DNA of 64,000 nucleotides from an uncultured Candidatus Poseidoniales archaeon (GTDB lineage: Archaea; Thermoplasmatota; Poseidoniia; Poseidoniales; Thalassarchaeaceae). This document shows, one piece after another, positions 35,790-50,700 of this stretch. The notes under the pieces were generated by a model that was not told where the DNA came from, did not search any database, and worked only from the letters and a program-made list of their open reading frames with translations. The translations under genes and the position numbers were made by a program. Each line of letters starts with the position of its first letter. Position 1 is the first letter of the stretch. Where the stretch lies: NCBI GenBank assembly GCA_964401115.1, contig CAYNXD010000052.1, positions 14 to 64,013 of the forward strand, read 5' to 3'.

Positions 35790-36782
35790 ATGCAAACGAC
35801 AATGGGAGGGGACGGAAGGACTCGTGATTTGATTGCTACAGTCAGTGCAATTTCAAATGGTTTGATGAATGAAGTATCAAAAGTCATCATTGGAAAACAA
35901 GAAAATTTGAGGAAAGTAAGCATTGGAATTCTATCAAACGGAAACATGTTGCTGGAGGATTTCCCCGGTCTAGCAAAGACCCTGCTAGCCAACACTTTTG
36001 CTAGAGCGCTGGGGTGTAAATTCAAGCGTGTTCAATTTACCCCTGACTTGCTACCTTCCGATATTATGGGGACCTATATGTATGACCAAAAGGCTGGAGA
36101 ATTCAAACTTCGACCAGGACCTCTTTTCTCCAATATTCTACTTGCTGATGAAATAAATCGTGCTCCTCCAAAGACTCAAGCTGCTCTGCTTGAGGCTATG
36201 GAAGAAAAACAAGTTACAATTGAAGGTATTACTCACAAGTTACCGGCGCCGTTCGTGGTGCTTGCAACACAGAACCCAATTGAGCAAGAAGGTACCTATC
36301 CACTACCTGAAGCACAAATGGACCGATTCCTGATGAAGATGTCGATGGGGTATCCTGATCGCTCAGAAGAAAAGGCTATCCTTGCTCGAAGGAAGTTACG
36401 AGGGAAGGATGACCATGATGTGCAGCAAATTACATCGCCCAAGAAAGTAGTCGCTATGCAGAAGGCTCTAGAGACAGTACATATTGATCCAGCAATTCTT
36501 TCCTATATCGTTGAAGTCGTTCAGCGCACTCGTGAAGATCATAGAGTAATCACTGGAGCATCACCTCGTGCAAGCCAGTCATTGTTCAAGACTGGGCGAG
36601 CCTCAGCAGCAATTGATGGCCGAGATTATGTAATTCCAGATGACATTAAAGGTGTGGCTATACAGATTATCAGCCATAGAATTGTACTCAAGCCTGAAGC
36701 TAAGATACGAGGTATTACAGGAATGCACATTACTAGGAAAATCCTCTCAGAGGTACCTGTTCCAGTAATACAAACCGCTTGA
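35790..36782 (+). CDS. MoxR-like AAA+ ATPase
   Basis: Walker A/B region and conserved MoxR (AAA_3) segment GLAKTLLANTFARALGCKFKRVQFTPDLLPSDIMGT. Confidence 0.8.
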   Translation: MQTTMGGDGRTRDLIATVSAISNGLMNEVSKVIIGKQENLRKVSIGILSNGNMLLEDFPGLAKTLLANTFARALGCKFKRVQFTPDLLPSDIMGTYMYDQKAGEFKLRPGPLFSNILLADEINRAPPKTQAALLEAMEEKQVTIEGITHKLPAPFVVLATQNPIEQEGTYPLPEAQMDRFLMKMSMGYPDRSEEKAILARRKLRGKDDHDVQQITSPKKVVAMQKALETVHIDPAILSYIVEVVQRTREDHRVITGASPRASQSLFKTGRASAAIDGRDYVIPDDIKGVAIQIISHRIVLKPEAKIRGITGMHITRKILSEVPVPVIQTA

Positions 36783-36882: not shown

Positions 36883-37887
36883 ATGGACCCGTACAAAATG
36901 GTAATTTCATGCACCAACCAAAAGGGTGGATGTGCAAAAACTACCACTGCAGTTAACGTGGCCACTGCATTGGCAGAAGGTGATCCCTCAAGGGGCATTG
37001 AACCTTCCAAAGTACTGCTGGTTGATCTGGATCCACAAGGGAGTGCATCAACCTCATTTGGAATAAACAAAAGCAAACTAGAACGTACCGTGTATGATTT
37101 ACTGATGAACGACCTAGGTGAAGAATTACCAATTATCAAAGATTATCTAATAGGGCCAGAAATAATTACAGATTCAATGAGAGAAACTTGGATGAAGGCA
37201 AATGATGGAAAGAAACTCTCTAAGGCAAGGAAAAAATCATTGAAAGTTGAAAACCTGTGGCTTCTACCATCAAACATCCAATTATCAGGGGCTGAAATCG
37301 AATTAGCTACCAGAATTGGACGAGAAACTAGATTGAAAGAAGGTCTAGCATCTGCAATAAACGAGTTCGACTATATCATTATCGACACACCTCCGAGTTT
37401 GGGGTTGCTGACTATCAACGCACTAGCTGCATCTAATTGGGTTATGATTCCAGTTCAGACCGAATGGTATGCATTGGAGGGGATGAGTCAATTGATTAAT
37501 TCAATAAAGTTGGTTCAGATGAGAATAAACCCTAATCTCAAATTATTCGGTATCGCTTTGACGATGTATCAGCTGAGGAATAATCTAAGCAAAATAGTTT
37601 CCAAAGAAGTACGTGGATCAGCTTTCCATAAGGAAGTCTTTAGCACCATGATCCCTAGAAATTCTGACATCGCAGAAGCACCAATGGAAGGTGCTCCGGT
37701 CGTTTTGTTAAAAAAAGGAAATAGAACAAATAAAGGATCTCAAGCCTATTGGTCATTAGCCAAAGAAGTTTCTGATAGAGTAAAGAAAATGAGACATAAG
37801 TATGGAGTTTATGAAAAAAATCATTTAAAAATCCACAAATTAAACCAATCTAACGAAGACGATGCTTTGTCCGAACAACTAGAATAA
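36883..37887 (+). CDS. ParA/Soj-family partition ATPase (deviant Walker A) with internal insertion
   Basis: Deviant Walker A NQKGGCAKTTTAVNVATALA, LLVDLDPQGSAS, IIIDTPPSLG; ~50-aa insert relative to canonical Soj. Confidence 0.75.
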   Translation: MDPYKMVISCTNQKGGCAKTTTAVNVATALAEGDPSRGIEPSKVLLVDLDPQGSASTSFGINKSKLERTVYDLLMNDLGEELPIIKDYLIGPEIITDSMRETWMKANDGKKLSKARKKSLKVENLWLLPSNIQLSGAEIELATRIGRETRLKEGLASAINEFDYIIIDTPPSLGLLTINALAASNWVMIPVQTEWYALEGMSQLINSIKLVQMRINPNLKLFGIALTMYQLRNNLSKIVSKEVRGSAFHKEVFSTMIPRNSDIAEAPMEGAPVVLLKKGNRTNKGSQAYWSLAKEVSDRVKKMRHKYGVYEKNHLKIHKLNQSNEDDALSEQLE

Positions 37888-37900
37888 TCATACTAATGAG

Positions 37901-38203
37901 TTGTCAACTCACCGTCAAACTTCTATAGATGTCCTAAACCAACAGGGTTTAGGTGAGTTAATGGGTTCTCCAGATATGACATCAGTTAGTGTGAGTTTTG
38001 AAGTACGAAGGCAGTTAAATTCTATGCGGGCATTAGAAAATTACCAAAGCGTAGATGATCTTCTTCAACATCTTTTGAAGACCTATAGATTGAATAAACT
38101 CAACAGAGACAGTGAATCTCTTCAGGATTCCTTGAAATCGTTAAATGACGTGGATGTTAATGTTCTAATCTCTAAACTCGACCTATCGCCCTTCAAGGAG
38201 TGA
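37901..38203 (+). CDS. small ribbon-helix-helix (CopG/Arc-like) protein, candidate ParA partner
   Basis: Predicted beta-strand VSVSFEV followed by two helices (RRQLNSMRAL; SVDDLLQHLL); immediately downstream of parA and overlapping the next small ORF by 4 nt. Confidence 0.4.
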   Translation: MSTHRQTSIDVLNQQGLGELMGSPDMTSVSVSFEVRRQLNSMRALENYQSVDDLLQHLLKTYRLNKLNRDSESLQDSLKSLNDVDVNVLISKLDLSPFKE

Positions 38204-38460
38204 ATCAAATGAAGGGACAAGCGCCGTCATACTGGATTACTGCTGAGAACCTCGTTCGTGGCTTATTTGATGACATGAGTGATGAGCAGACCCTACTCAA
38301 ATTAGCATCTTGTAACGTAATAGAATTGCATGCGGGGAATAAAGTTTGGAATTCTTTTCTGTGGTTGCTTGTCAACCATATGAAGAGAGAAGGCGTACCT
38401 ATTCTTTCTGGTAAAGATTTGGGCGATTTACGAAGTCGCCTACCGATAGTTTTCCATTGA
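38200..38460 (+). CDS. hypothetical small protein (GTG start) co-transcribed with ParA/RHH pair
   Basis: Overlapping stop/start with the upstream ORF; no recognisable motif. Confidence 0.3.
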   Translation: MNQMKGQAPSYWITAENLVRGLFDDMSDEQTLLKLASCNVIELHAGNKVWNSFLWLLVNHMKREGVPILSGKDLGDLRSRLPIVFH

Positions 38461-38463
38461 AAA

Positions 38464-41022
38464 TTATTCTTTGTTATTGGCTTCCCACCACTGATGTCCG
38501 TAGTATACCCATTGCTCCATAGTCCAACCCATGGGCAACCCCCCTTCTGGTAGTTCAGGTGCCCCAGCTGGTAATTCGGTTGTAGTTGTCGCTGGTGTTG
38601 GTTGTTCCTCTACGGCAATGGGTTCTGGTTCTGGTTCTGGTTCAGGGGCTGTTGGGGATGATCCCTCGGTCAATCTCTGGATTAAGTCTGCCTTCTTACC
38701 AGATACTGGAAGACCTGCAGCCTTCAGTTGCTCTTTGAGTTGGGCCACTGTCATTGATTCGAAATCTGGAGTCCCGGAGTCAGGAACTACCGAACCATCA
38801 TCACTTTCTTCGAAGGAACTAGCATCGGGAACGACGCTAGGTTTGGATGCGGTATCATCATCAATATCCCAAAGTTGGTCTTCAGTAACACCATCACCTA
38901 GTTTTTCACCTTCCCATCCTTTCTCATCAGTAATACCACCTCGTGATTCGAATTCTTCACCCTCTTCCCATGCTTGCAATTCTTTTGTGGCATCCTGATG
39001 AGTATATTGTGCATCTGTGGCTCGCTTCGACACTGAAGTTCTTATCAGTCCAATTAATCCCCACATCGCAAGAATACCTGCAATAAGAGCAATACCAATT
39101 CCTCCACCATAAATTAGAAAATCTTTGATTAATTTATTCCTTTTTTCACTAGAAGATAACTCGCTATTGTCATTGTTGCTATCATCTAGTACATATTCTA
39201 CTTCACAATTATTGATATCATCTGAATATTTGTTACAATATTGATCTAACGTCCATACAGAAGGGTCGAGATCGTCCCAATCAGCATTATCTCCAACTCC
39301 GTCCCTGTCACTATCCACCCATTCAGATTTATTTGATGACCAATCCTGAGGTGGGTTTTCTGTTCTTTCACCACTATCTTCATACCCATCGCCATCTGAA
39401 TCAATACAACCAAATCTCTGAATTGTGACATACTTGTTCTGCTCAAAATCAAAGACAATCCCTCTAGTGCTATTGCCCCATTCATTAGGGCACCAATCTG
39501 GATTATTTCCATTCAGATTGTCACCATAGTTGTCATCATCTGTATCACACCATTGTGTATCATCTTGGGGATATTTGTCTGGGCCATTTGGATTAATTTC
39601 GGTGCATGGTATTTCGCCTTGTCTTGGGTTACTATATCCATCGCTATCTGAATCTGGACAGCCATTCCGGTCCTTGTTCGAATTACCAGGTGAATCTACA
39701 CAATCGTCAGGATTGGTACCATTGGGATTGTCCCCCAATCCATCACCATCACTGTCAGACCATTGTGATGAATCATTCGGGAAAGTATCGCCATCATAGC
39801 CGAGTGTATTATCGCCGTAGCCGTCACCATCACTGTCAATATACTGGTCCGCATTATTAGGGAAGGCATCTCCGTTTGTACCTCCGGGATTATCGCCCTT
39901 GCCATCGCCATCCGAATCTAGCCATTGACTAGGATCTTCGGGGAACCTATCTGGATTATTACCATTGGAATTGTCACCATATCCATCGCCGTCTTGATCT
40001 GTCTGTTGAGTTGAATCATGAGGAAAAGCATCAACTACATCTACTACTCCATCACCATCATTATCTGTATCAAACATCAAAATATCTGATTTGTCTGAGA
40101 ATGATGCTAGAACAAAGAATGAAGACCCTAGCCCTGACTTAATTCCAACTACATCGCCAAGTGAAGAGAACGACTCAATTTCTGACAAACTGCTACCATT
40201 GAGTATTGTCAAGTGGCCGTTGTGTGCTCCAACTAACAAATCACCGTTATCAGATTGTATTACTGTACGAATAATTCCTCCAGTTGAAAGTGTAATATCA
40301 CCAGTTTTTTGCCAATCTGTCGTAGAATATTTCAGTATTTGGCCGTCAACTGATGTTGCCAATAGGCTAGCCCCGTCATCGATAAGATATAGGCCTGAAA
40401 CCTCACCTTGAATATGCATCAAATCAGTATTTTTTGTCCCATTGCTTCCATAAGAGACACGGACAATTGAGTCCCTACCACCAGTAATAACAGAGCCATC
40501 TGAAAGACAAATTATGTTTGTGAGTTTAATTGAATGTTGTTGGGTGGTGACTTGAGATTCTGTTGTATCTTCAAACTTCATTGCAAAACCATATGCTCTA
40601 TCACTAACCCAAAGTTCCCCTTGACTACCCCAACTAACTGCATCAACACCACTTGAAACTGGAATAGTGTATAACATTGAATGGAGTTCAGTAGAAATTA
40701 CTCTTACCCCATTATCAGTACTCAGTGCCAAGCGATGTTGGACATTATCGATAGCCCCACTATTTATTGCAACACCAAGAGAGAGGTTCCATACTTTAGT
40801 TAATGCCCCACTCGCCTCAAAATCATAAGCTGCTATTTCTCCTGTGTTATTTGCAATTATTGTTAGCCCATCGTAGGATTCCCACCACCCCAACGTACTA
40901 TCCTCAAATTCAGTAATTGAGCCAGCGTTACCAAGGCTAGAAGCGGATGCAGGAGTTGATGCCATTAATGGTAATAAAATCGCAAGAATCAAAATTATAG
41001 TCAGTCCAAACTGGCGACGCAT
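38464..41022 (-). CDS. type-I membrane surface protein: signal peptide, beta-propeller-like domain, thrombospondin type-3 calcium-binding repeats, single TM, cytoplasmic acidic tail with SAP/HeH motif
   Basis: N-terminal signal MRRQFGLTIILILAILLPLMASTPASA; >10 DxDxDGxGD repeats (DSDGDGYGDN etc.); TM LIYGGGIGIALIAGILAMWGLIGLI followed by R/K; cytoplasmic MTVAQLKEQLKAAGLPVSGKKADLIQRL matches SAP/Rho-N HeH consensus; PEPEPEPEP linker and Trp-rich C-terminus. Confidence 0.7.
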   Translation of the reverse strand: MRRQFGLTIILILAILLPLMASTPASASSLGNAGSITEFEDSTLGWWESYDGLTIIANNTGEIAAYDFEASGALTKVWNLSLGVAINSGAIDNVQHRLALSTDNGVRVISTELHSMLYTIPVSSGVDAVSWGSQGELWVSDRAYGFAMKFEDTTESQVTTQQHSIKLTNIICLSDGSVITGGRDSIVRVSYGSNGTKNTDLMHIQGEVSGLYLIDDGASLLATSVDGQILKYSTTDWQKTGDITLSTGGIIRTVIQSDNGDLLVGAHNGHLTILNGSSLSEIESFSSLGDVVGIKSGLGSSFFVLASFSDKSDILMFDTDNDGDGVVDVVDAFPHDSTQQTDQDGDGYGDNSNGNNPDRFPEDPSQWLDSDGDGKGDNPGGTNGDAFPNNADQYIDSDGDGYGDNTLGYDGDTFPNDSSQWSDSDGDGLGDNPNGTNPDDCVDSPGNSNKDRNGCPDSDSDGYSNPRQGEIPCTEINPNGPDKYPQDDTQWCDTDDDNYGDNLNGNNPDWCPNEWGNSTRGIVFDFEQNKYVTIQRFGCIDSDGDGYEDSGERTENPPQDWSSNKSEWVDSDRDGVGDNADWDDLDPSVWTLDQYCNKYSDDINNCEVEYVLDDSNNDNSELSSSEKRNKLIKDFLIYGGGIGIALIAGILAMWGLIGLIRTSVSKRATDAQYTHQDATKELQAWEEGEEFESRGGITDEKGWEGEKLGDGVTEDQLWDIDDDTASKPSVVPDASSFEESDDGSVVPDSGTPDFESMTVAQLKEQLKAAGLPVSGKKADLIQRLTEGSSPTAPEPEPEPEPIAVEEQPTPATTTTELPAGAPELPEGGLPMGWTMEQWVYYGHQWWEANNKE

Positions 41023-41104
41023 AGAACCTTGAAACGTGTTTTACCTTTCAATGCGGCGATTACCCGATTATCCAAGAAATTGGCAATCTGATACCATTTT
41101 TGAC

Positions 41105-43657
41105 TCATTCTTCCTCTTGTTCTTCTGACTCAACCGGGGTAAGAGTTGGCGTAACTGGAGTTAATTTTGCAACCTCTGATGGAGTCAGTATCTTACCACT
41201 GGTTTGTACAGGGCGCAAGGTAGCCGCTTCGCCTGTTTTAGGTTGTAATACCGGCCTGCTAACTGGTTTTAGAACATCTACTTTAGGTGATGCAGTGTCT
41301 TGTTTTGGACTTCTATCTAAATCTAGAATTGACGACTCCTCGTCTCTGATTAATCGTCCGCCACCTGGTGGCCCACGCTTTGGTTTATCAAGTGATGGCG
41401 CATCTTCTTGTGGAGGAGTCCTAACTAAGGCACCTCCACCTGGTGGCCCTCTAGATACCTTTTCTAGTATTGATGATGTGTCTTCTTCATCATCCCAATC
41501 ATCCTCTTCGACAATCTCAGGTGTTGTTGAAGGCAACTCCCCTCCAAGAGGTTTATGATCGACTATTTCACCTTGAGACGAAATCTCTTCCTTAGCAATA
41601 TCACTTAGAGACCGCTCGGGTTTATCAGGTGCGGCATCAATCTTGACTGGTGGCCTTACTGGAGATAGTCTGTCTGCTGAGGTAGAACCTATTGTAGGCC
41701 TAGGAATTGATGTTGCTGGCGTCACATCTTGCTTTTGACCGATAGGCGCACGGGCTGGAGCCAAACGCCCACCACCTTCGGGCTTGAGTGGTGTGCGTGT
41801 TTGAGCAGGGGCGCCCGTACCTAAACGAGCGGCGCTGGGTTGCCCCAGACGAGCGCCACCAAGTAAGCCACCGGCATCCCCTCCGGTTGCTGTCTCAGGC
41901 ATCTGTCCTTGAGCACCTTGTAATGCACCAATCCATCGCTCCCTTCGGGCGAGGACACCATCTTGAGACTCAAGATTTTCAACCTCTTCTTCCATCTGCT
42001 TGAGTCGAACTTCTTCTTCCAAATCTTCCTCGGATACTAGATTTCGTTCAAGTTGCCCTCTAATTTTCTCTTCGGCGACTTGCTTAAATTCTTCAGAACG
42101 TTGTTCTAGTGTGGCTAGACGCTCACGAATCTCTGTTCTCTTGACTGAAAGTTGCGCTTCAATTTCTGCCCTAATCTCTGCTTCCCTTCTTCGGACTTCA
42201 ATTAGTGCCTTGTTACGCATGATTTCTTCTCTCTTTGCCAATTGTCTCTCTAATTGATCTGTGACCTCATCTTCCTTACGGCTACGGAATTCCCTCAAAC
42301 GGGCCTCCATTTCAACTTCAAGTTCCATAGAAGTTTCCTGCTTTAACAAATCGAGTGATGTTTCTTGAGAAATTTTCTCATTTCTCACACGAGCATCAAT
42401 CTCAGCCATGATTTGACGTTGGACCGCTGTTTCTTTTGCTCTAAACTCCTGCTCCAATTGATCAATCCACTCTTGTTTTCGAGATTCAAATGAAGATGAC
42501 AGTTGCTCCCGTAATTCAATTTCTCTATCATGTCGGAATCTAGATAATCTGCTAGAAATTTCTGACTCGCGTGTCCTGCGATAAGCCTCAAAATCATTTG
42601 ACATTTGAACATCTAGATTATCTTCAATTTCAAGACTCAAGGCGTGCTCAATTTCATCGATTGACTGGCTGAAAGTCAAATCATACTTCTCACGCAGACG
42701 CTGTTTCCGTTCAGCTATGCGTTCCCCATATTGTTTCTGGAGTTCTGTCAAAATCGATGACCTTACTTCGTCCCTCTTTCTGGCCACAGCTAACTCAAGA
42801 TCCTGTTGCATTCTCTCTTCAAGTTTTTCAGTTTCAGATGTTAGCCTCTGTTCAAGTTCATCCTGGAGATCCTTTGCAATCTCTTCTTCAAGACGATGTG
42901 CCCTGTGTTCATATTCGCTCCTCAAACGAGCTTCACGTGCGCGCAGGCGTCCGCGCAGTTGCTGCTCTAGACGCCGTCGAATTCCATCACGCAACTGTAT
43001 TTCTCTTTCAGCAAGACGTGCTTGTTGTTCAGATTCTATAGTTTCAGATTGAATTTCCTCTTCAGATTTGAGTTGATTTTCCATTTCATCCTTCAATTCT
43101 GATTCAAGATTACTCAATTGTTCTTGAAGGGCTTGATTGGCCTCGATTTCCATCTTCTCTTGAAGGAAGGCGCGCCGACGTTCGAACTCTTGATCCATTT
43201 CATCAGAGAGTTGAGTTTGAATTTGGTCTCTACTTGCTGAAAGACGACGTTCTCTTTCCACTTCCAGTTGTTCTTTGAGGGATATCTCCTCCCTCTCTAA
43301 TCGCATATCTAATTCTTCACGAAGTATCTCTTCTTCTCTGCCGAGAGTTTCTTTCTCAAGTCTGGAAAGTTCTGATTCCATCTCCTCTCTCATTTCCGAT
43401 TCTAGATTTGTGAGAATTGATTCGTGCTCTAATTGCAGAGCCCTACCCATTGCACCTTTTGCAGTGCTGATTCTTTCAGCCTGCTCTTTAATCCTGAGTC
43501 TGCGCTCTCTTGTAAGATTTCTACGAAGTGATTCTTCTTCGTTTAGATTTGCAGAAATCTGACCTGCCCTATCTGCTGACGGAGATCCTGACCCTGTAAT
43601 TTGATGGCGTAATTCTGCGAGTGATTGATTGTCGCCAGCAACTACACTCTTCTTCAA
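41105..43657 (-). CDS. 850-aa Glu/Arg/Leu-rich long coiled-coil protein with Pro/Gly-rich C-terminal tail containing RGPPGGG repeats
   Basis: ~600 residues of uninterrupted E/R/L/Q heptad-like sequence without Walker or catalytic motifs; C-terminal low-complexity tail with two RGPPGGG copies; no TM. Confidence 0.6.
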   Translation of the reverse strand: MKKSVVAGDNQSLAELRHQITGSGSPSADRAGQISANLNEEESLRRNLTRERRLRIKEQAERISTAKGAMGRALQLEHESILTNLESEMREEMESELSRLEKETLGREEEILREELDMRLEREEISLKEQLEVERERRLSASRDQIQTQLSDEMDQEFERRRAFLQEKMEIEANQALQEQLSNLESELKDEMENQLKSEEEIQSETIESEQQARLAEREIQLRDGIRRRLEQQLRGRLRAREARLRSEYEHRAHRLEEEIAKDLQDELEQRLTSETEKLEERMQQDLELAVARKRDEVRSSILTELQKQYGERIAERKQRLREKYDLTFSQSIDEIEHALSLEIEDNLDVQMSNDFEAYRRTRESEISSRLSRFRHDREIELREQLSSSFESRKQEWIDQLEQEFRAKETAVQRQIMAEIDARVRNEKISQETSLDLLKQETSMELEVEMEARLREFRSRKEDEVTDQLERQLAKREEIMRNKALIEVRRREAEIRAEIEAQLSVKRTEIRERLATLEQRSEEFKQVAEEKIRGQLERNLVSEEDLEEEVRLKQMEEEVENLESQDGVLARRERWIGALQGAQGQMPETATGGDAGGLLGGARLGQPSAARLGTGAPAQTRTPLKPEGGGRLAPARAPIGQKQDVTPATSIPRPTIGSTSADRLSPVRPPVKIDAAPDKPERSLSDIAKEEISSQGEIVDHKPLGGELPSTTPEIVEEDDWDDEEDTSSILEKVSRGPPGGGALVRTPPQEDAPSLDKPKRGPPGGGRLIRDEESSILDLDRSPKQDTASPKVDVLKPVSRPVLQPKTGEAATLRPVQTSGKILTPSEVAKLTPVTPTLTPVESEEQEEE

Positions 43658-43835
43658 TTCTGCTAATTTCGATTCTGTCTCAGTCAGGGTCCCATCCCCT
43701 TGGAGCGCATCGCTCCTATTTCGTTACTGCAACTCTCTTCCTATTTGAGTGGGCAGGGTGGCATTATCCGTCAAACGTCCATTATTACACCCCTAGGGTG
43801 ATTCCCCAGAACTCTAGTTTGAAAGATGATATAAA

Positions 43836-44252
43836 TCAAAATGTAACTTTGAATGACTCTTCGCAGGCAGGGCATGAAATTTCTCTTGAACCCGGCCTTG
43901 GCCTTAGTCTAAGCCTACGTTCGCAAGCAGGGCATGATATCTCTACCTTAACCACCTTCGAAATTATTGTAAATTGATTTGCACAGGATGAACAAGCCAC
44001 TTTCGCAGGTCGATCATCAACCCCAGATACCAATACTTTGGAACAAGATGGGCAAGCAACTCTCTCTTCAGCCCATTCTTTTCTAGTTTCTTCATGCTCA
44101 ATGCGTGACACTGCGCCACATAATGTACAGGTCTTTTCGCCGAGACCTAGGGGTAGCAATCCATCGCAATTTGGACAATTAATTAGAGGGGGCGCTATTG
44201 TTGATTCAACTTCCAATGATTCTGGCGCATCGCCTATGCCATCATCACTCAA
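43836..44252 (-). CDS. multi-zinc-ribbon protein (four CxxC...CxxC modules)
   Basis: CPNCDG...CTLCGA; CPSCSK...CSSCAN; ISCPACERRL; ISCPACEESF; the last two modules are a recent tandem duplication visible at nucleotide level (43855-43945). Confidence 0.55.
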   Translation of the reverse strand: MSDDGIGDAPESLEVESTIAPPLINCPNCDGLLPLGLGEKTCTLCGAVSRIEHEETRKEWAEERVACPSCSKVLVSGVDDRPAKVACSSCANQFTIISKVVKVEISCPACERRLRLRPRPGSREISCPACEESFKVTF

Positions 44253-44261
44253 TTTAACACC

Positions 44262-44741
44262 TCATTTCCTTGATTTACCAATTACTAGAATACCACTTGG
44301 AGTGAATGTGAATGGTAAATCTAGTTCTACACCCCACTCATCTGCAGCAGATTCTAACATCTTTTTTGCTGCTATTGCATCCCTAGCTGAACCTGGAATT
44401 TCTATCCAATGAACATTTGCTCCTTTTCTGATAAGTGAAGCAACCTCATCCGGGAAATCACCCAAATCTGGCTGAGATGTACTTTCCTTATCTTCAAGAT
44501 TAATTGGACCCGTAAGTCGCCACCAACGTGCCCTACCCTGATCTCTATGATTCTCAACAATGCCTGCCTTTGTCAATTGTTGTAAATGATGATAAAGATG
44601 ATATCTAGTTACATTCAGTGCCTCTTGAATTTGAACTGTTGATTTTTCTTCCACATCTTGTAATGTTTCAACTATACCCCTTCTCGTCTCGTGAGCCAAG
44701 GCTACTTGACGAGGGTCTCCACGAATCTTTGCCATTGCCAT
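44262..44741 (-). CDS. ArsR-like winged helix-turn-helix transcriptional regulator with C-terminal unknown domain
   Basis: RRGIVETLQDVEEKSTVQIQEALNVTRYHLYHHLQQLTKAGIV is a typical ArsR/SmtB-type wHTH; located directly downstream of a metal ATPase. Confidence 0.65.
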   Translation of the reverse strand: MAMAKIRGDPRQVALAHETRRGIVETLQDVEEKSTVQIQEALNVTRYHLYHHLQQLTKAGIVENHRDQGRARWWRLTGPINLEDKESTSQPDLGDFPDEVASLIRKGANVHWIEIPGSARDAIAAKKMLESAADEWGVELDLPFTFTPSGILVIGKSRK

Positions 44742-44793: not shown

Positions 44794-47502
44794 TTAACTA
44801 CTTCCAATCATTACTGACTTAAGAGTCTTCCAAGAATCGATAAAATCTTCACCAAGTTGTTTGAATAAGGAACTCAACAAACCGAAACGGCTCATTCCTT
44901 GATCAGCTAACCAAATCCCATTTAGGAGAATTATCAAAGCGCTGGCTTCGTGTATAAAGACACCCAATGTTAGACTAGAATGCCATTGATCAACAACTGA
45001 AATAACTAACAAAATAGTAACCAAAAACGAAATTAGAAGATTAATTTGGACTATTTTTTTAGCTCTTCTTGAAAGTCTGATTAGACGTGAAAGGATTTGT
45101 GGGTCTTGGCTAGGTATCAATACATCAGCAGCCTCTAGATTAACGCTTTCACCACTTCCAACTGCTACCCCTACATCCGCAGAAGCCAGTGCCGCAGCAT
45201 CGTTGAAGCCATCTCCAGCCATCATTGTGCAAAGCGCCTGACTACGCCTTTGCACCCATATCGCTTTCCCATCTGGATCTATTTCTCCACGGCAAAACTT
45301 GGATTCAATACCCAACACATCTCCCAAAGACTCTACTGCATTTTGAGAATCTCCTGAAAGTAATTCTACCGATACGCCCATATCTTTCAAATCTGATACT
45401 AGATTTGTCGCACCATTCCGTAAATCGTCATTATTGAATACGAATAAAGCGATTGCTGTTTTGCTTTTTGAAAGTAAGGATATACCAAATCCATTGTTAC
45501 GAGCATCTTCAGCCGCTTTAGCAAGGGGTTTGGGAATTGTTACCCCTTCATCTAGTAACCAATTTTCAGTGCCGAACCTGACTTTTGACCTGCCAACTTT
45601 ACCACTAACTCCAGCAACTTCGTCAGAAATTGAAAGTACCTTAGTAGGTATCGCGCCTTGACTATCAGCAGCCACTAAAATAGTAGCAGCATAGGGGTGA
45701 TTACTACGTTGTTCTAATCCCGATGCTAAAGAAAGTGCATCTTCCATTCCTGTGCCGTCAGACAAAACTACTGAATCTAGGCAAGGTTGGCCACTTGTCA
45801 GAGTCCCAGTCTTATCTAAGAGAGCCAAATCGACTCTCGCAGTTCGTTCAAGCACGTCCCCGCCACGAGCGATGATACCGTAATGTGCAGCATTTGAAAG
45901 CGCAGCAGCGTGAGGGATTGGGGCGGCCAAAAGTAAAGCGCATGGACAAGCAACTACCCATAACAACAACATCATCATGACATCCCCTAACAAAATGCCT
46001 GCTAACCCACCTCCAATTATCACAGTGGGAACCCAAAATTTGGTGAAATTTTCTACAGATGATTGTAAGCGAGGTGGTTGGTCACGATAAGTATGAACTC
46101 TTTCAATTAATCCCGATAACTTGGTATCTTCTCCAACTGCTGAAACTTCTATGATTACTGGACCGCGGATTAAAACGAGGCCCGCTTCAACAAAATTGCC
46201 AATTTCTACTCTTATAGGGGTACTTTCTCCAGTCATTGGGGCTCTATCTATCTGCCCTAATCCTTCAACAATGAACCCATCAACTGGAATTAATTCCCCA
46301 CTCCTAACTTCAACAATATCACCAATTTGAACTATATCAATTGGTACCTTAATAGGCTCAGGATGGGATGGGGAAAGAGATGAAATTGGTGATTGGCTTA
46401 TGCTGAATGTAGTAGATGATACATCGAGTTTATTGGGTTCTTGAGAAGATATTACGCGCGCTTGTTGGGGCAAACGATCGAGCCCCCCTTGCATCGCATC
46501 TCTTGCTCTAAGTAGAGCAGATGATTCAAGATGCCCGCTTATTGATTCAAGTAAAACCACCATTAATGCTTCAGGCCAATGTTGAAGAATAGCTGCACCG
46601 ATTACTGCCATTGTTGTCAAAATTTGGAACCCCAATACTCTATTCCGAATACTTGCAACGGCTTCTCTGAACATCCTAAAGCCACCAACAATAACACCTG
46701 AGAATCCTAATAGAGTAATTAGAGCAAGTGGAGCTGCTGCTGCTTGAAGAATCATAACCACTGGAAGAATAAATAGGGCAAGTGATGCTCCAATCAGGCG
46801 CTGATCAGATATCGATAAACCTGGAGCCACACCCTCAATTAGTTTAAGTTCAGTTCCAGTAATCCTCTCCAATGATAGTTTTAATTCATTACGCGAAAAG
46901 GCATCTAGGGATTCTGGGGTTTGTATAAGTATTTGAGAACCATTAAATTTAACATCAAGAATTCCTATTGTAGATTGGATTAATCTCTTGATGGCTTTTT
47001 TATCACATCTTTGTCTTTCCAATACTGATTCTAGTTTCACACCTTGAATCCTCATCCACGGCAGATCTGGCTCATATCCCAAACTACAGAGAACGTGATT
47101 TACTTTATACAAATCACCTTTACCCAAGTCAACGCTTACCCGTACAACACCTTCGGCATGAGAAATTCGAGAAGAAGTCACGCCCAAATTCTTGTTAATC
47201 GCCGAGGTGGCTTTCATTGCACAATCTGGGCAATCCATACCAGTTATTGGCCAGTCAAAATCATGAATCCCATCCGTGACAATTTCCGCCTCAAAGTACC
47301 CCTCATCAATTATTGGAGATTTGCTTTTTTGAGGTTTTTTTGAAGTAGAGGTATTTGCAATTACTGAGAGGGGGGATGTTTCTTCTTCATCGGCACAACA
47401 ATCAGCAGTTGCGCATGCATCTTCAACTTCTTCTACAACGGATGTGTCCTTTGAATCATCCAGAAAGATGAATTCATTTGATTCATCATCCCTCTTGCGC
47501 AT
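44794..47502 (-). CDS. heavy-metal translocating P1B-type ATPase with N-terminal metal-binding domain
   Basis: HMA motif GMDCPDC, TGES, CPC (VVACPCALLLAAP), DKTGTLT, HP (SNHPYA) motifs. Confidence 0.85.
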   Translation of the reverse strand: MRKRDDESNEFIFLDDSKDTSVVEEVEDACATADCCADEEETSPLSVIANTSTSKKPQKSKSPIIDEGYFEAEIVTDGIHDFDWPITGMDCPDCAMKATSAINKNLGVTSSRISHAEGVVRVSVDLGKGDLYKVNHVLCSLGYEPDLPWMRIQGVKLESVLERQRCDKKAIKRLIQSTIGILDVKFNGSQILIQTPESLDAFSRNELKLSLERITGTELKLIEGVAPGLSISDQRLIGASLALFILPVVMILQAAAAPLALITLLGFSGVIVGGFRMFREAVASIRNRVLGFQILTTMAVIGAAILQHWPEALMVVLLESISGHLESSALLRARDAMQGGLDRLPQQARVISSQEPNKLDVSSTTFSISQSPISSLSPSHPEPIKVPIDIVQIGDIVEVRSGELIPVDGFIVEGLGQIDRAPMTGESTPIRVEIGNFVEAGLVLIRGPVIIEVSAVGEDTKLSGLIERVHTYRDQPPRLQSSVENFTKFWVPTVIIGGGLAGILLGDVMMMLLLWVVACPCALLLAAPIPHAAALSNAAHYGIIARGGDVLERTARVDLALLDKTGTLTSGQPCLDSVVLSDGTGMEDALSLASGLEQRSNHPYAATILVAADSQGAIPTKVLSISDEVAGVSGKVGRSKVRFGTENWLLDEGVTIPKPLAKAAEDARNNGFGISLLSKSKTAIALFVFNNDDLRNGATNLVSDLKDMGVSVELLSGDSQNAVESLGDVLGIESKFCRGEIDPDGKAIWVQRRSQALCTMMAGDGFNDAAALASADVGVAVGSGESVNLEAADVLIPSQDPQILSRLIRLSRRAKKIVQINLLISFLVTILLVISVVDQWHSSLTLGVFIHEASALIILLNGIWLADQGMSRFGLLSSLFKQLGEDFIDSWKTLKSVMIGSS

Positions 47503-47642: not shown

Positions 47643-47727
47643 TGGTGCAGGGGGCAGGATTCGAACCTGCGAAGCGCTAAGCAGTGGATCTTGAGCCCAC
47701 CCCCTTTGACCACTCGGGTACCCCTGC
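47643..47727 (-). tRNA. tRNA-Leu (anticodon CAA) with long variable arm; CCA encoded
   Basis: Reverse complement gives GCAGGGG-TA-CCC-GAGTGGTCAAA-GGG-G-GTGGG-CTCAAGA-TCCAC-(13-nt variable arm)-GCAGG-TTCGAAT-CCTGC-CCCCTGC-A-CCA; perfect 7-bp acceptor stem. Confidence 0.8.
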
Positions 47728-47755
47728 GATACTATTGGCTATACGCTACCCTTTG

Positions 47756-50700
47756 TCATTCTTCCTCATACAATGACGGTGTTGAAGTAATCACTTCGGG
47801 AGGGGGGCCTGCCCATTCAGGCCAATTATCCAGGCCCCAAGGTGGTGGTGGAGGCGTTTCTTCTATTTCCTCTTCATCATCTTCATCCCAATCCTCCTCA
47901 ACACGTTTTGAAATAGCAATTGCCATCACCATTACTGAAATGATTAAAATCAAAAATCCAAAGGCCATTGGAGTATTTATCGATGATAAAAAGGCCTCAC
48001 CTGTGGTTTGTTCTCGCACTAAACCAACAGGTACACTAGTCAAATTATTAGGATTATTATTTAGTACGATATAAAGTTGTAAATCACCAGCACTCCATGC
48101 CTCTACATTGAATGTGAATAGCGCGTGCTGCTGCGGCAATAATGAGATGTTTGTCTCATTAATAGTGATGTATCGGCCCCCATCGCCACTAGATTGCCAA
48201 GTCCACAAACCTACATTCGTCACACCCATATCATTACCTTCATTGTAAACTCGGCCATTGATAGTAAAAATCGTGTCCAGTGTTGGTTGATATGGATTTA
48301 CAGTCAAATCTGAAATAATAGGGTGGAAATAAATGACCCGCAGTTGTGGCATTCTTGGGTCATCTTCACTACCCACTCCAACGAATGAATGACCTGCTAA
48401 GTCTCTACCCTCTACCCACACTACCAAACTATCCCCGGGACTTAGTAACGTGTGATTAATATCGAAATCTATCCGAGTAGAATATGTCCAAATTCCATCA
48501 ATATTCGTTGCTAACGGTAGTTCGGCAACACCATGCATATCTAGAATTTCTACCCCATGCCTTCGGAAGGACCAATGCAAATTTAATGAATTATGATCCA
48601 TTCCACCAACTTCATGAATTTGAATTGTGACCAATTGCTGCGACATTTGATTAGAATTGATTGAACTCAAAGTAGCATTTGGAAAAGCAACTACTGGTGC
48701 GATGGAATCAATTACTAAATCTAGATTCATTGAACTAATTGGGACCGTCGAAACCCCTCCAGACAGCGTAGCAGTCACTTTTGCAACCCCATCATTCCAA
48801 CGAAACTGTGGAACTTGCGTTGTTGTTGTGAATATATGACCCGCACTGAGTTCTACGTCCCAAATCTCTGGTTCGTTTTGGCTATCATCCATACTAATGG
48901 TAACAACCCATTCCCCATCCAGTGTTACATTTTCTTGATTAGCCATATGAATCAGCCGACCTGAGAAATTGAAGCGGTCATCAGGTTGCAAATAGAGTGT
49001 TTGCTCTACTAAACCAACACCCGGAGGGGTGAGATCAAATGCCTGATCAAGAACTAAACCAGCCCTACCATCTGTTGTCCAAGCAAGATGGTTCAAAGTG
49101 CCACCCCCTAGCTCCAATAATTGACCATGTTCAACAATAGAAATACTCGGTGCTTGTGGAGTCAAATTCCATGATTGAGGGGCATCCGCCCCTATACGAA
49201 ATTGAATTGCCACATTGTACGAACCGCCTGCAAGTTCTGAGATCGTTACTCCAAGTGGAATTATTGGTGATGCTTCATTTACAGCAATTTCACCAGATAA
49301 CGGAGTAATCCAAATATCACCAAGAGGGTCCCCGGTTGCGAGATTTACGGAAATGTTGTCAAGTGAGATGATTCCATTACCATCTGATAATGAGAACGAA
49401 ATTTCATGTGTAGTCCCCACAAGCAGATTATCACCCCACCTATCTATTCGAATAGAGGGTAGTGAGAGTATTGTAGGGAGGTCCGCTTGCGTGGTGATCG
49501 TTGCCATATCATTATCTAAACCGGGTCCACCACCTTGCTCAACCGGATGGCCCGCTAAATCAGTCCCCGTCACATACAGAGATACCCTGCCCATCTCTCC
49601 ATTTCCAATTAAATCGATTGCAGGGAAATCTACTCTTACAGTACCCTGTGCCTTCATAGGAGTAATTTGTCTAGAAATTGAGTATTCCCAATCATCAGCC
49701 TCAGAGTCGCCATCGACATCATCAATCCCTTCCCTCCAAACACGGAGTTCCAATGGCCCTCCAAACGATTCGGTTTCAGTGACTTCTACAGAAATTGGTA
49801 ACAAACGATCTTCTGGCCAAACGTTTCCATCTGCTAATCTAACACCACTAGGGGTATGTACCATCAACGGAGATAGAATTGGTGGATTGGAATCTATCAT
49901 CAAAGTCACTGGCGTTCTATCTTTTGTTTCATCTGTTGCACCATTTAGAGAAACGCCGCTAGGACCTGGCCTAAGTATCCATGATGTTAGGTTAATTTCA
50001 CCACTGTTTTCATTGAGAGTTACTGTTGCATTCCAGTATCCATCTTCGCCACTCAAAGCTGCAACTTGGTAATCAGAAGATGCCCCCTCAATTTGAATTG
50101 TGACCAAGAAATTATCATTTGATGGCCGCATATTTGAATCTTCAAAACGGACCGTGCCCGATACTTTAACCAAAGAACCGGAGGCTATCTCAAATGGATA
50201 AGATGGAGATTGACGAGTAGAAAGAAGACGATTGTCAGCACCCCTGACTTCCCAAGAATCTATCTCCATGTCATTTTCAACCGCTTTGGAAACCGTTCCA
50301 ATTCTGACATTATCAGCAGGTAAATGTTCCCCATTAATCCCCCATGATTCTGCTGAGATATCTATCCAGTCAACATCATCCCAGCCCCATTCAGTTTGTA
50401 ATTCCCACTTAATTCGCCAGCCATTATCAATTTGCATAACTGAACTAGCTGTAGAATTTATTGAGATTTGGCCACCACCCCCATATTGGTAGAATACCCC
50501 CCCAGAATCTAGATTTTCTGCTTCAAAGGTGATCAAGAAACCTTCTTGGGTTAGGAGTGAAAGATTTGCGCGCACAAGTTCATCTGCTGAAAACAAATGT
50601 GTGTGCTCTGTAGTTATGATTGTCTTCCTATCAGGTAACCAAGTCTGGGGAACTGATACGACTTCATTGACGATTAGTGGTTCGTGCTCTACACCGCCCC

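What the first reader, a model, noticed from the sequence alone, without database searches (positions are those of the whole stretch)
38464..44741. Co-directional block: ArsR-like regulator, multi-zinc-ribbon protein, 850-aa pure coiled-coil protein and a Ca-binding surface protein with a cytoplasmic SAP motif
Four tightly spaced minus-strand genes link a wHTH regulator and a zinc-ribbon protein to a long Glu/Arg-rich coiled-coil protein and a type-I membrane protein. The coiled-coil protein has a cytoskeleton-like character and no ATPase motifs. The membrane protein has a beta-propeller plus thrombospondin-3 ectodomain outside the cell and a SAP/HeH DNA-binding motif inside. The 82-bp gap between the coiled-coil and membrane genes suggests co-transcription. 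The architecture resembles a trans-envelope tether coupling a surface calcium-binding module to DNA or a filament in the cytoplasm. I do not recognise it as a described archaeal system.
Basis: partly seen in the sequence, partly recalled or inferred. Interest (0 to 1): 0.75.

Follow-up and report, generated by a model that had tools for sequence, protein, structure and literature searches.

The report
Marine archaeal rod and surface-protein pair
Uncultured marine Group II archaea keep a long rod-shaped orphan protein next to a calcium-binding surface protein with a conserved tail inside the cell; the pair may link the cell surface to an internal scaffold, but the proposed four-gene DNA-tethering operon is not supported.

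Summary
The four minus-strand genes and their domains are real, including a strong SAP hit in the tail inside the cell. They do not look like one operon.

- **Transcription units.** The ArsR-like gene and the zinc-ribbon gene sit 52 and 9 bp behind a heavy-metal P-type ATPase. The 850-aa protein and the membrane protein each follow a conserved promoter-like element.
- **The 850-aa protein.** It is not pure coiled coil. It has two ~240-residue helices with a 3.8-residue, non-heptad hydrophobic period, then ~300 disordered Pro/Gly-rich residues. It has no relatives outside this marine archaeal group.
- **Synteny.** Gene order is kept in about 45 loci, but so is the whole surrounding block, including translation genes. 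Synteny is therefore weak evidence of a functional link.
- **SAP.** It occurs in only 10 of 90 orthologues. The invariant tail feature is a C-terminal motif, PPLPxxGLPxGWTxxQWxWYGxxW, which also ends other surface proteins.
- **Sister lineage.** One lineage lacks the membrane protein, and its rod protein is short and tailless. This is a single evolutionary event.

Best reading, confidence about 0.4: a surface adhesin or envelope protein docks on the rod's proline-rich tail, and SAP is an optional add-on. No interaction or function was shown.

The parts
44262..44741 (-). ArsR/SmtB-type winged-helix regulator (159 aa) with an extra C-terminal ~80 aa. It has no Cys. It most likely belongs with the upstream P1B ATPase (44794-47502), not with the rod/surface pair.
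   Evidence: Pfam HTH_20 and HTH_5 score above their cut-offs. NCBIfam HTH_metalloreg scores 48.5 bits, below its cut-off of 55. The gene lies 52 bp after the ATPase. It is absent from the Poseidoniaceae-like and short-form loci.
43836..44252 (-). Triple zinc-ribbon protein (138 aa, six CxxC pairs). It is translationally coupled to the upstream gene. It is the only small gene that always precedes the rod gene, in the short-form lineages too.
   Evidence: It lies 9 bp after ArsR, with a GAGGTG Shine-Dalgarno-like box. In loci that lack ArsR it lies 12 bp after the ATPase. It is present in L048 and L050.
43740..43750 (-). TATA-like box ACTCAAATAGG upstream of the rod gene. It lies about 23 nt before the leader hairpin. 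The promoter role is inferred.
   Evidence: The box is conserved across the Thalassarchaeaceae-type loci.
43687..43716 (-). Conserved 5' leader of the rod gene. It consists of a hairpin (43702-43716, GGAGCG-AUG-CGCUCC) followed by the invariant GGGGATGGGACCC (43687-43699).
   Evidence: The 13-mer is invariant in 37 of 37 distinct loci. The hairpin is kept through compensatory changes: GGAGCA/TGCTCC, GGGAGG/CCTCCC and GAGAGG/CCTCTC.
41105..43687 (-). Rod protein gene. The listed ORF starts at TTG 43657 (850 aa). The true start is probably CTG 43687, ten codons upstream. Helix 1 is aa 37-281 (42815-43549). Helix 2 is aa 292-528 (42074-42784). The disordered acidic Pro/Gly-rich tail is aa 530-850 (41108-42070). 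It carries two RGPPGGG(R/A)L(V/I)R motifs, at 41435-41449 and 41360-41374.
   Evidence: AlphaFold2 model. Hydrophobic period of 3.79. Family alignments. Third-position variation upstream of the TTG. Motif scan. No family or structure match.
41044..41058 (-). Conserved promoter-like element CGCCGC-ATTGAAAGG in the 82-bp spacer. The 8-mer ends 22 nt before the membrane protein's ATG. That is where a TATA box sits for a leaderless archaeal mRNA. The role is inferred.
   Evidence: The motif (C)CGCCG-[AG]TT[CG]A[AT]AG is present in at least 31 of 34 loci. It lies at a fixed 22-23 nt from the Met that precedes the signal peptide.
38464..41022 (-). Type-I surface protein (852 aa). Signal peptide: aa 1-28. 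7-blade WD40-like propeller: aa 30-319 (40066-40935). Ten DxDxDG calcium-type repeats: aa 318-620 (39163-40071). TM helix: aa ~635-665 (39028-39120). The rest is an acidic disordered cytoplasmic tail.
   Evidence: About 90 full-length orthologues at 33-87% identity.
38662..38766 (-). SAP (helix-extended-helix) module in the cytoplasmic tail, aa 753-787. It is specific to some clades.
   Evidence: PF02037, E=2.4e-13. pLDDT about 90. It is present in 10 of 90 orthologues, in three separate clades, and the other orthologues score E>6.
38467..38559 (-). Invariant C-terminal tail motif (E/P)LPxGGLPxGWTMEQWxYYGxQWW, including a predicted helix at aa 835-848.
   Evidence: P825, G828, L829, P830, G832, W833, Q837, W838, Y841, G842 and W845 are invariant in 77 sequences. 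pLDDT is 74-80. The same motif ends unrelated surface proteins in L051 and L052.

Best explanation
**Genes and transcription units**
The block is not one system. It sits in a chromosomal region of a Thalassarchaeaceae (Marine Group IIb) archaeon whose gene order is conserved across the group.
- Unit 1 is a heavy-metal P1B ATPase with an ArsR-type regulator and a co-translated zinc-ribbon protein.
- Units 2 and 3 are separately promoted genes for two structural proteins.

**The two structural proteins**
- The membrane protein is a calcium-binding surface protein, an adhesin or envelope component. Outside the cell it has a propeller and TSP3-like repeats. One TM helix follows. Inside is an acidic disordered tail that ends in an invariant aromatic motif.
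- The rod protein has two ~240-residue helices, each about 35 nm long. It also has a ~300-residue proline-rich tail that carries conserved short motifs.

**Proposed mechanism (inferred, not shown)**
- The surface protein's C-terminal PPLP...GW...W-helix is a docking peptide for a partner under the membrane.
- That partner is most likely the Pro-rich tail of the neighbouring rod.
- This would couple surface proteins to an internal scaffold.
- The SAP module in this clade is an optional extra contact with nucleic acid. It is not the conserved function.
For: **Shown**
- Domain architecture and topology.
- The rod family is strongly conserved. It is 51-52% identical between the two MGII families, whereas the surface protein is 36-40% identical.
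- It is restricted to this group: 171 hits, almost all fragments, among 1.84 billion representative proteins.
- The rod gene is immediately followed by the surface-protein gene in every locus with enough sequence. These comprise 42 species-level genomes plus metagenome contigs.
- Insertions and deletions occur elsewhere in the block: ArsR is present or absent, and a CDP-alcohol phosphatidyltransferase sits between the zinc ribbon and the rod gene. None falls between the rod and surface-protein genes.
- The sister lineage (L048, L050) lacks the surface protein. There the rod is 348-365 aa with no disordered tail.
- The tail motif is invariant and portable between surface proteins. A docking peptide would behave this way.
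- Each gene has its own conserved promoter-like element.
- ArsR and the zinc ribbon are packed against the ATPase.
Against: - No interaction was tested.
- The whole region from the ATPase to PRPP synthase is syntenic, so adjacency is weak evidence.
- The short-form loci form one clade on a MoxR tree. The co-occurrence of rod tail and surface protein therefore rests on a single event, which also involves the two small ORFs.
- Distance-matrix correlation between rod and surface protein (partial r 0.83) is no higher than between either of them and the ATPase (0.76-0.88).
- The tail motif also occurs on proteins encoded elsewhere, so its partner need not be the neighbour.
- It was not determined whether the two helices pack as a hairpin.
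Confidence: 0.4

Rival explanations
1. The genes are neighbours only. The surface protein is one of many Marine Group II thrombospondin-like adhesins. Its tail motif is a generic sorting or anchoring signal read by something encoded elsewhere. The rod protein has an independent cytoplasmic role. Adjacency reflects a slowly rearranging chromosome block.
For: - Block-wide synteny includes aIF5B, NDK and the L24e/S28e/L7Ae genes.
- Promoter-like elements are separate.
- The tail motif occurs on other surface proteins in other contexts.
- There is no specific co-evolution signal.
- Rinke et al. 2019 treat thrombospondin genes as widespread adhesion genes in Poseidoniales (PMC6461757).
Against: - The two genes are never separated in about 45 loci, despite insertions and deletions elsewhere in the block.
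- The rod's tail and the surface protein are present or absent together.
Confidence: 0.33
2. It proposes a four-gene operon, controlled by the ArsR-like regulator, that builds a trans-envelope tether. The tether would connect a surface calcium-binding module to chromosomal DNA through SAP.
For: - SAP is real, confidently folded and cytoplasmic.
- Where present it is much better conserved (68-75% identity) than the rest of the protein (37-40%).
- Another surface protein, an S8 peptidase in L052, also ends in TM + SAP.
- A ParA-type ATPase lies convergently next door.
Against: - SAP is absent from 80 of 90 orthologues, including one 63% identical to the window protein.
- ArsR is missing in many lineages and sits with a metal ATPase.
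- Conserved promoter-like elements lie before the rod gene and the surface-protein gene.
- There is a 178-bp gap before the rod gene.
Confidence: 0.1
3. The ancestral partner of the rod is the convergent ParA/MoxR neighbourhood. The rod would be a scaffold for a ParA-type positioning or partition ATPase, as coiled-coil partners are for bacterial ParA proteins. The surface protein would be a later, unrelated insertion.
For: - Zinc ribbon, short rod and a convergent ParA-MoxR is the arrangement common to all lineages, including those without the surface protein.
- ParA matches the ParA_partition and AAA_31 models.
- The small ORF after ParA has a ribbon-helix-helix-like N-terminus.
Against: - The orientation is convergent and no shared regulation is seen.
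- The ParA hits are below NCBIfam cut-offs.
- The small ORFs have no detectable family.
- The same block-synteny caveat applies.
Confidence: 0.12

Closest known systems
Thrombospondin-type adhesion proteins of Ca. Poseidoniales (Rinke et al. 2019, PMC6461757)
   Same: - Both are large secreted or anchored proteins with Asp-rich DxDxDG calcium-type repeats.
- They are widespread in MGII.
- Relatives of the window protein are named this way by NCBI or hit PF02412.
   Different: - This is a single-copy orthologue at a fixed locus.
- It has a WD40-like propeller, one TM helix and a 140-200 aa cytoplasmic tail with invariant motifs.
- The window protein itself does not reach the Pfam TSP_3 model.
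Eukaryotic membrane proteins with SAP/HeH/LEM modules that hold chromatin at the inner nuclear membrane (Heh1/Src1, MAN1, LEM2). Cited from general knowledge.
   Same: Both are membrane-spanning proteins that present a helix-extended-helix module to the DNA-containing compartment.
   Different: - There is no homology beyond the ~35-aa module.
- Pfam HeH scores only 18.3 bits against a cut-off of 28.9.
- The module is optional in this family (10 of 90).
- The bulk of the protein is outside the cell.
- DNA binding is untested.
Adhesin-cytoskeleton couplings. Examples are the Mycoplasma attachment organelle (coiled-coil HMW2 with proline-rich adhesin tails) and dystroglycan-dystrophin (a PPxY tail bound by a rod protein). 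Cited from general knowledge as analogy only.
   Same: - A type-I surface protein has a proline-rich cytoplasmic tail.
- It sits next to a long alpha-helical rod protein with acidic, proline-rich regions.
- MGII belongs to Thermoplasmatota, some of which lack a cell wall.
   Different: - There is no sequence or fold relationship.
- The interaction is not shown.
- The rod has a 3.8-residue, non-heptad period.
ArsR/SmtB regulator paired with a P1B heavy-metal ATPase (CadC-CadA, ZiaR-ZiaA type). Cited from general knowledge.
   Same: An ArsR-type wHTH gene lies immediately beside an HMA-domain P1B ATPase.
   Different: - It has no Cys and no recognisable alpha-5 metal site.
- It has an extra C-terminal domain.
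- It lies downstream of the ATPase and is followed by a zinc-ribbon gene.

Membership tests
SAP domain (PF02037) | Profile match above the curated cut-off | tested here: met
   49.8 bits against a cut-off of 23.9, E=2.4e-13, residues 753-786. The isolated tail scores 52.2 bits.
SAP domain (PF02037) | Two helices separated by an extended Gly-containing loop | tested here: met
   AlphaFold2 gives helices 759-768 and 777-787 at pLDDT 88-94.
SAP domain (PF02037) | Binds DNA | not testable with these tools
   A gel-shift assay with the isolated module is needed.
ArsR/SmtB metalloregulators | Winged-helix profile match | tested here: met
   HTH_20 scores 38.7 against 27 and HTH_5 scores 29.2 against 22. 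NCBIfam HTH_metalloreg scores 48.5, below its cut-off of 55.
ArsR/SmtB metalloregulators | Metal-binding ligands (alpha-3N Cys or alpha-5 Asp/His/Glu site) | tested here: not met
   The protein has no Cys. Three of its six His residues (48, 51, 52) sit in the YHLYHHL recognition-helix stretch, and no alpha-5 site is recognisable.
Thrombospondin type 3 repeat (PF02412) | Profile match | tested here: not met
   The repeat region gives no hit even at E<=10. Some relatives do hit PF02412 (P0080, P0081, P0102).
Thrombospondin type 3 repeat (PF02412) | Tandem DxDxDG-type calcium-binding motifs | tested here: met
   Ten D.[DN].D[GN] motifs lie between residues 318 and 619. The region is modelled at pLDDT about 90.
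WD40-like seven-bladed beta-propeller | Fold | tested here: met
   Foldseek E~1e-14, with target-normalised TM 0.73-0.81 to WDR5, RACK1 and WDR61. Pfam propeller hits are far below their cut-offs.
Canonical heptad coiled coil / SMC-Rad50-like rods | 3.5-residue hydrophobic period | tested here: not met
   The best period is 3.79. Its power is 5.3, against a maximum of 2.1 in 500 shuffles. Power at 3.5 is 0.17.
Canonical heptad coiled coil / SMC-Rad50-like rods | ATPase head (Walker A/B) | tested here: not met
   No such motif is present. No Pfam, NCBIfam or PDB match was found.
Known anti-phage defence or phage families | Profile match of the rod or the surface protein | tested here: not met
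   PADLOC and PHROGs gave no hits for either protein.
Single operon of four genes | No internal promoters and tight spacing | tested here: inconclusive
   The gaps are 9, 178 and 82 bp. Conserved TATA-like boxes lie at a fixed distance before the rod and surface-protein genes. There is no transcript data, and no clear oligo-T terminator follows the rod gene.

The most novel reading that the evidence does not exclude
Marine Group II archaea may possess a cortex system not described before. Type-I surface proteins would carry interchangeable cytoplasmic tail modules: the PPLP-GW-W-helix motif, SAP, or WW-like hairpins. These modules would plug into a lineage-specific rod with non-heptad periodicity and, in some clades, into the nucleoid. 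This would be a prokaryotic functional analogue of dystroglycan-dystrophin or of the lamina/LEM connections. It would tie surface adhesion to internal architecture in what Rinke et al. (2019) call the most abundant planktonic archaea of ocean surface waters.
Probability: 0.15. Interest if true: 0.85.

Novelty: new variant of a known kind. Interest (0 to 1): 0.5.

Why it matters
Marine Group II archaea are reported as the most abundant planktonic archaea in ocean surface waters and have no cultured representative (Rinke et al. 2019). Their cell envelope and internal organisation are therefore essentially unknown.

- **A concrete candidate link.** A rod protein and a surface protein are conserved across the order. 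Each carries conserved short motifs in its disordered cytoplasmic region. Together they give a testable candidate for how these cells connect surface adhesion to the cell interior.
- **Possible tail code.** Portable tail modules on several surface proteins suggest a common docking or sorting code.
DNA tethering by SAP is an optional feature, not the core of the family. The regulator and the zinc-ribbon gene probably belong to a metal-efflux unit.

Tried and rejected
- **Profile search of the rod against PDB sequences.** No hits at E<=1.
- **Mirror-tree test of rod against surface protein.** Partial r was 0.83, but the ATPase control gave 0.76-0.88. The test is uninformative.
- **Database search with the 40-aa tail motif.** Results were flooded with 29-70 aa gene fragments. 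Only the contexts of two of them were useful.
- **The two small ORFs.** Pfam and PDB profile searches found nothing significant. The ribbon-helix-helix reading rests on sequence pattern only.
- **Rfam on the window.** Only two tRNAs were found. The rod-gene leader matches no known family.
- **Literature searches.** Searches for Poseidoniales with coiled-coil, and for SAP-bearing archaeal membrane proteins, found nothing relevant.
- **TATA-like box in the window.** The test for TT[CG]A[AT]A as a general promoter motif was suggestive, with 5 of 13 upstream hits in the -30 to -21 bin, but was not statistically assessed.
- **Rejected readings.** A defence system, an SMC/Rad50-like protein (no ATPase head) and a mobile element (the flanks are housekeeping genes).
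Full report
**Origin and observation**

- The best hits of the 852-aa protein are from Candidatus Thalassarchaeaceae and Poseidoniales MAGs, including a 100%-identical protein on a 190-kb contig. The window is therefore chromosomal DNA of a Marine Group IIb archaeon, with GC about 0.42.
The gaps between them are 9, 178 and 82 bp.
- Upstream on the same strand, 52 bp away, is an HMA-domain P1B heavy-metal ATPase at 44794-47502 (TIGR01525, 384 bits).
- Downstream and convergent are MoxR (35790-36782), a ParA-type ATPase (36883-37887) and two small overlapping ORFs (37961-38203 and 38200-38460).

**The individual proteins**

*Regulator and zinc ribbon*
- The 159-aa protein is an ArsR-type wHTH (HTH_20 at 38.7 bits, HTH_5 at 29.2 bits). 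It has no cysteine and carries an extra C-terminal ~80 residues.
- The 138-aa protein has six CxxC pairs, which make three zinc ribbons.

*Surface protein (852 aa)*
- It has a signal peptide, then a seven-bladed WD40-like propeller at residues 30-319. The propeller has pLDDT above 90 and Foldseek TM about 0.8 to WDR5.
- Ten DxDxDG-type repeats follow, at residues 318-620, modelled at pLDDT about 90.
- There is one TM helix, followed by RTSVSKR, and then a very acidic tail (pI 4.1) that is mostly disordered.
- The tail contains a SAP module (PF02037, E=2.4e-13) that folds as helix-extended-helix at pLDDT about 90.
- Pfam TSP_3 does not hit the repeats. The thrombospondin label is therefore based on the motif pattern.

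*Rod protein (850 aa)*
- It has no Pfam, NCBIfam, PDB-sequence, PADLOC or PHROG match and no P-loop.
- AlphaFold2 gives two long helices, 37-281 and 292-528, at pLDDT about 90. Everything after residue 530 is disordered.
- The disordered third is Pro/Gly/Ser/Thr-rich (40%). It carries conserved short motifs, including two copies of RGPPGGG(R/A)L(V/I)R.
- Conserved hydrophobic positions recur every 3.79 residues, not every 3.5. The power is 5.3, against a maximum of 2.1 in 500 shuffles. 'Pure coiled coil' is therefore inaccurate on two counts.

**Synteny**

- Contexts were read for five homologues from metagenomes and for 42 species-level genomes.
- Every locus with enough sequence has the zinc ribbon, then the rod, then the surface protein. 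The two small ORFs, ParA, MoxR, aIF5B, NDK, L24e, S28e, L7Ae and PRPP synthase follow convergently.
However, the whole block is syntenic, so the order says little about function.
- The changes that do occur are more informative:
  - ArsR is absent from the Poseidoniaceae-like loci.
  - One clade has a CDP-alcohol phosphatidyltransferase inserted between the zinc ribbon and the rod gene.
  - Nothing ever separates the rod gene from the surface-protein gene.

**Transcription units (inferred from sequence conservation)**

- The zinc-ribbon gene starts 9 bp after ArsR, behind a GAGGTG box. Where ArsR is missing it starts 12 bp after the ATPase. It therefore travels with the ATPase.
- The 82-bp spacer before the surface-protein gene contains (C)CGCCG-[AG]TT[CG]A[AT]AG in at least 31 of 34 loci. 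The motif always ends 22-23 nt before the Met that begins the signal peptide. In the window it lies at 41044-41058. A TATA box for a leaderless archaeal mRNA would sit at this position.
- Before the rod gene there is a TATA-like ACTCAAATAGG (43740-43750). About 23 nt downstream comes a hairpin kept by compensatory changes (43702-43716). An invariant 13-mer, GGGGATGGGANCC, follows and is present in 37 of 37 distinct loci.
- Third-position variation shows that translation begins upstream of the listed TTG, probably at CTG 43687. Relatives have ATG or TTG at or next to that position.
- No clear oligo-T terminator follows the rod gene, so read-through is not excluded.

**What is conserved in the tail**

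- SAP is present in 10 of 90 orthologues, in three separate clades. An HMM built from those ten finds nothing in the other 80 (E>6).
- Where present, SAP is 68-75% identical between clades whose proteins are otherwise 37-40% identical.
- The invariant features are a GGI...W patch near the membrane and the C-terminal PPLPxxGLPxGWTxxQWxWYGxxW motif. The motif includes a short predicted helix.
- The same C-terminal motif ends two unrelated large surface proteins in other genomic contexts (L051, L052). L052 also encodes an S8 peptidase with a TM helix and a C-terminal SAP.
- Other TSP3-rich proteins end in WW-like Trp/Tyr hairpin motifs.
- The tails of surface proteins in this group therefore carry interchangeable small modules.

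**Distribution of the rod**

- A word-indexed search found 71 homologues, all at E<1e-83.
- An exhaustive HMMER scan of 1.84 billion representative proteins found 171 hits. Only three are full-length clusters. The rest are almost all fragments, apart from two short forms of 348-365 aa.
- The short forms keep the N-terminal about 210 residues and the end of helix 2, and they lack the disordered tail.
- Their loci (L048, L050) read ATPase, zinc ribbon, short rod, then convergent ParA-MoxR-aIF5B. They have no surface-protein gene and no small ORFs.
- On a MoxR neighbour-joining tree the two short-form loci form one clade outside all loci that carry the surface protein. The rod tail, the surface protein and the small ORFs were therefore gained or lost together once. 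This is consistent with a functional link, but it is a single observation.

**Interpretation**

The best-supported account has three parts.
1. The ArsR-like gene and the zinc-ribbon gene belong with the metal ATPase.
2. The surface protein is a calcium-binding adhesin or envelope protein of the thrombospondin-like kind already noted in Poseidoniales (PMC6461757).
3. Its invariant cytoplasmic C-terminus is a docking peptide. Its most likely partner is the proline-rich tail of the neighbouring rod. SAP is an optional nucleic-acid contact.

Part 3 is inference, with confidence about 0.4. The main rival, at about 0.33, is that the two genes are merely neighbours and the tail motif is read by something else.

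**What failed**

- Fold searches with the rod model were uninformative.
- A mirror-tree test gave no signal above an ATPase control.
- The small ORFs have no detectable family.
- Literature searches found nothing on this pair.

**Novelty and score**

- The domains of the surface protein, the regulator and the zinc ribbon are ordinary.
- The rod is a family without detectable relatives outside this marine archaeal group and has unusual periodicity.
- The portable tail motif has no match in the Pfam or NCBIfam scans run here, and the paper searches found no description of it.
- Whether these parts form a system is unproven.
- I rate the finding as a new variant of a known kind: a surface protein plus a helical scaffold. 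Interest is 0.5.
- I put a 0.15 chance on a genuinely new surface-to-interior coupling system.

Noticed in passing
window 41044-41058 (minus strand): A conserved CGCCGC-ATTGAAAGG element lies in the spacer between the rod and surface-protein genes. It is present in at least 31 of 34 related loci, at a fixed 22-23 nt from the start codon. This is the position of a TATA box for a leaderless mRNA.
   Followed up: yes
window 43687-43750 (minus strand): The rod-gene leader contains a TATA-like ACTCAAATAGG, a hairpin with compensatory changes across clades, and a 13-mer GGGGATGGGANCC that is invariant in 37 of 37 loci. The 13-mer contains an out-of-frame ATG-GGA-CCC-TGA mini-ORF. The true start is probably CTG 43687. 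A -1 shift from the mini-ORF would give MGP-LTETE, which matches the in-frame MGPLSESRE of L002. It matches no Rfam family.
   Followed up: partly
window 36883-38460 (plus strand): A ParA-type ATPase is followed by an 80-aa ORF (37961-38203) with a ribbon-helix-helix-like N-terminus (MTSVSVSFEVRRQLN). An 86-aa ORF overlaps it by 4 nt. Both small ORFs are conserved across MGII and absent from the lineage that lacks the surface protein. Neither has a detectable family.
   Followed up: partly
L051:6103-8123 and L052:4721-8120: Unrelated large surface proteins, frameshifted in long-read assemblies, end in a TM helix plus the same PPLPxxGLPxGWTxxQWxxYGxxWL motif. The motif is therefore a portable cytoplasmic tail module.
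   Followed up: partly
L052:2-1642: A subtilisin-like (Peptidase_S8) surface protein has a TM helix and a SAP module at its extreme cytoplasmic C-terminus. SAP therefore recurs on tails of different surface proteins in this group.
   Followed up: no
proteins P0053, P0060-P0063, P0071, P0074, P0080, P0081: TSP3-rich proteins of 1350-1490 aa end, after their TM helix, in WW-like Trp/Tyr motifs (GYEWxxxxxGxxWYR and NGVHWxxxxxGxxxYYD).
   Followed up: no
window 42074-43549 (rod helices): The hydrophobic periodicity is 3.79 residues over about 500 residues, with spacing mostly 4-4-4-3. This is incompatible with a left-handed heptad coiled coil. It suggests right-handed or straight helix packing.
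   Followed up: partly
L048:10001-11098 and L050:10001-11047: Short forms of the rod protein (348-365 aa, no disordered tail) occur in a sister lineage. The gene abuts the convergent ParA gene with no surface-protein gene between them.
   Followed up: yes
L002:6212-7075 (also L027, L029, L032, L033): One clade has a CDP-alcohol phosphatidyltransferase gene inserted between the zinc-ribbon and rod genes.
   Followed up: no
window 47643-54115 (minus strand): A 2119-aa ORF lies upstream of the ATPase, with a tRNA-Leu(CAA) gene between them. Its counterpart in L001 and L002 has InhA-like MAM domain hits. It is present in Thalassarchaeaceae-type loci and replaced by other genes in Poseidoniaceae-like loci.
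   Followed up: no
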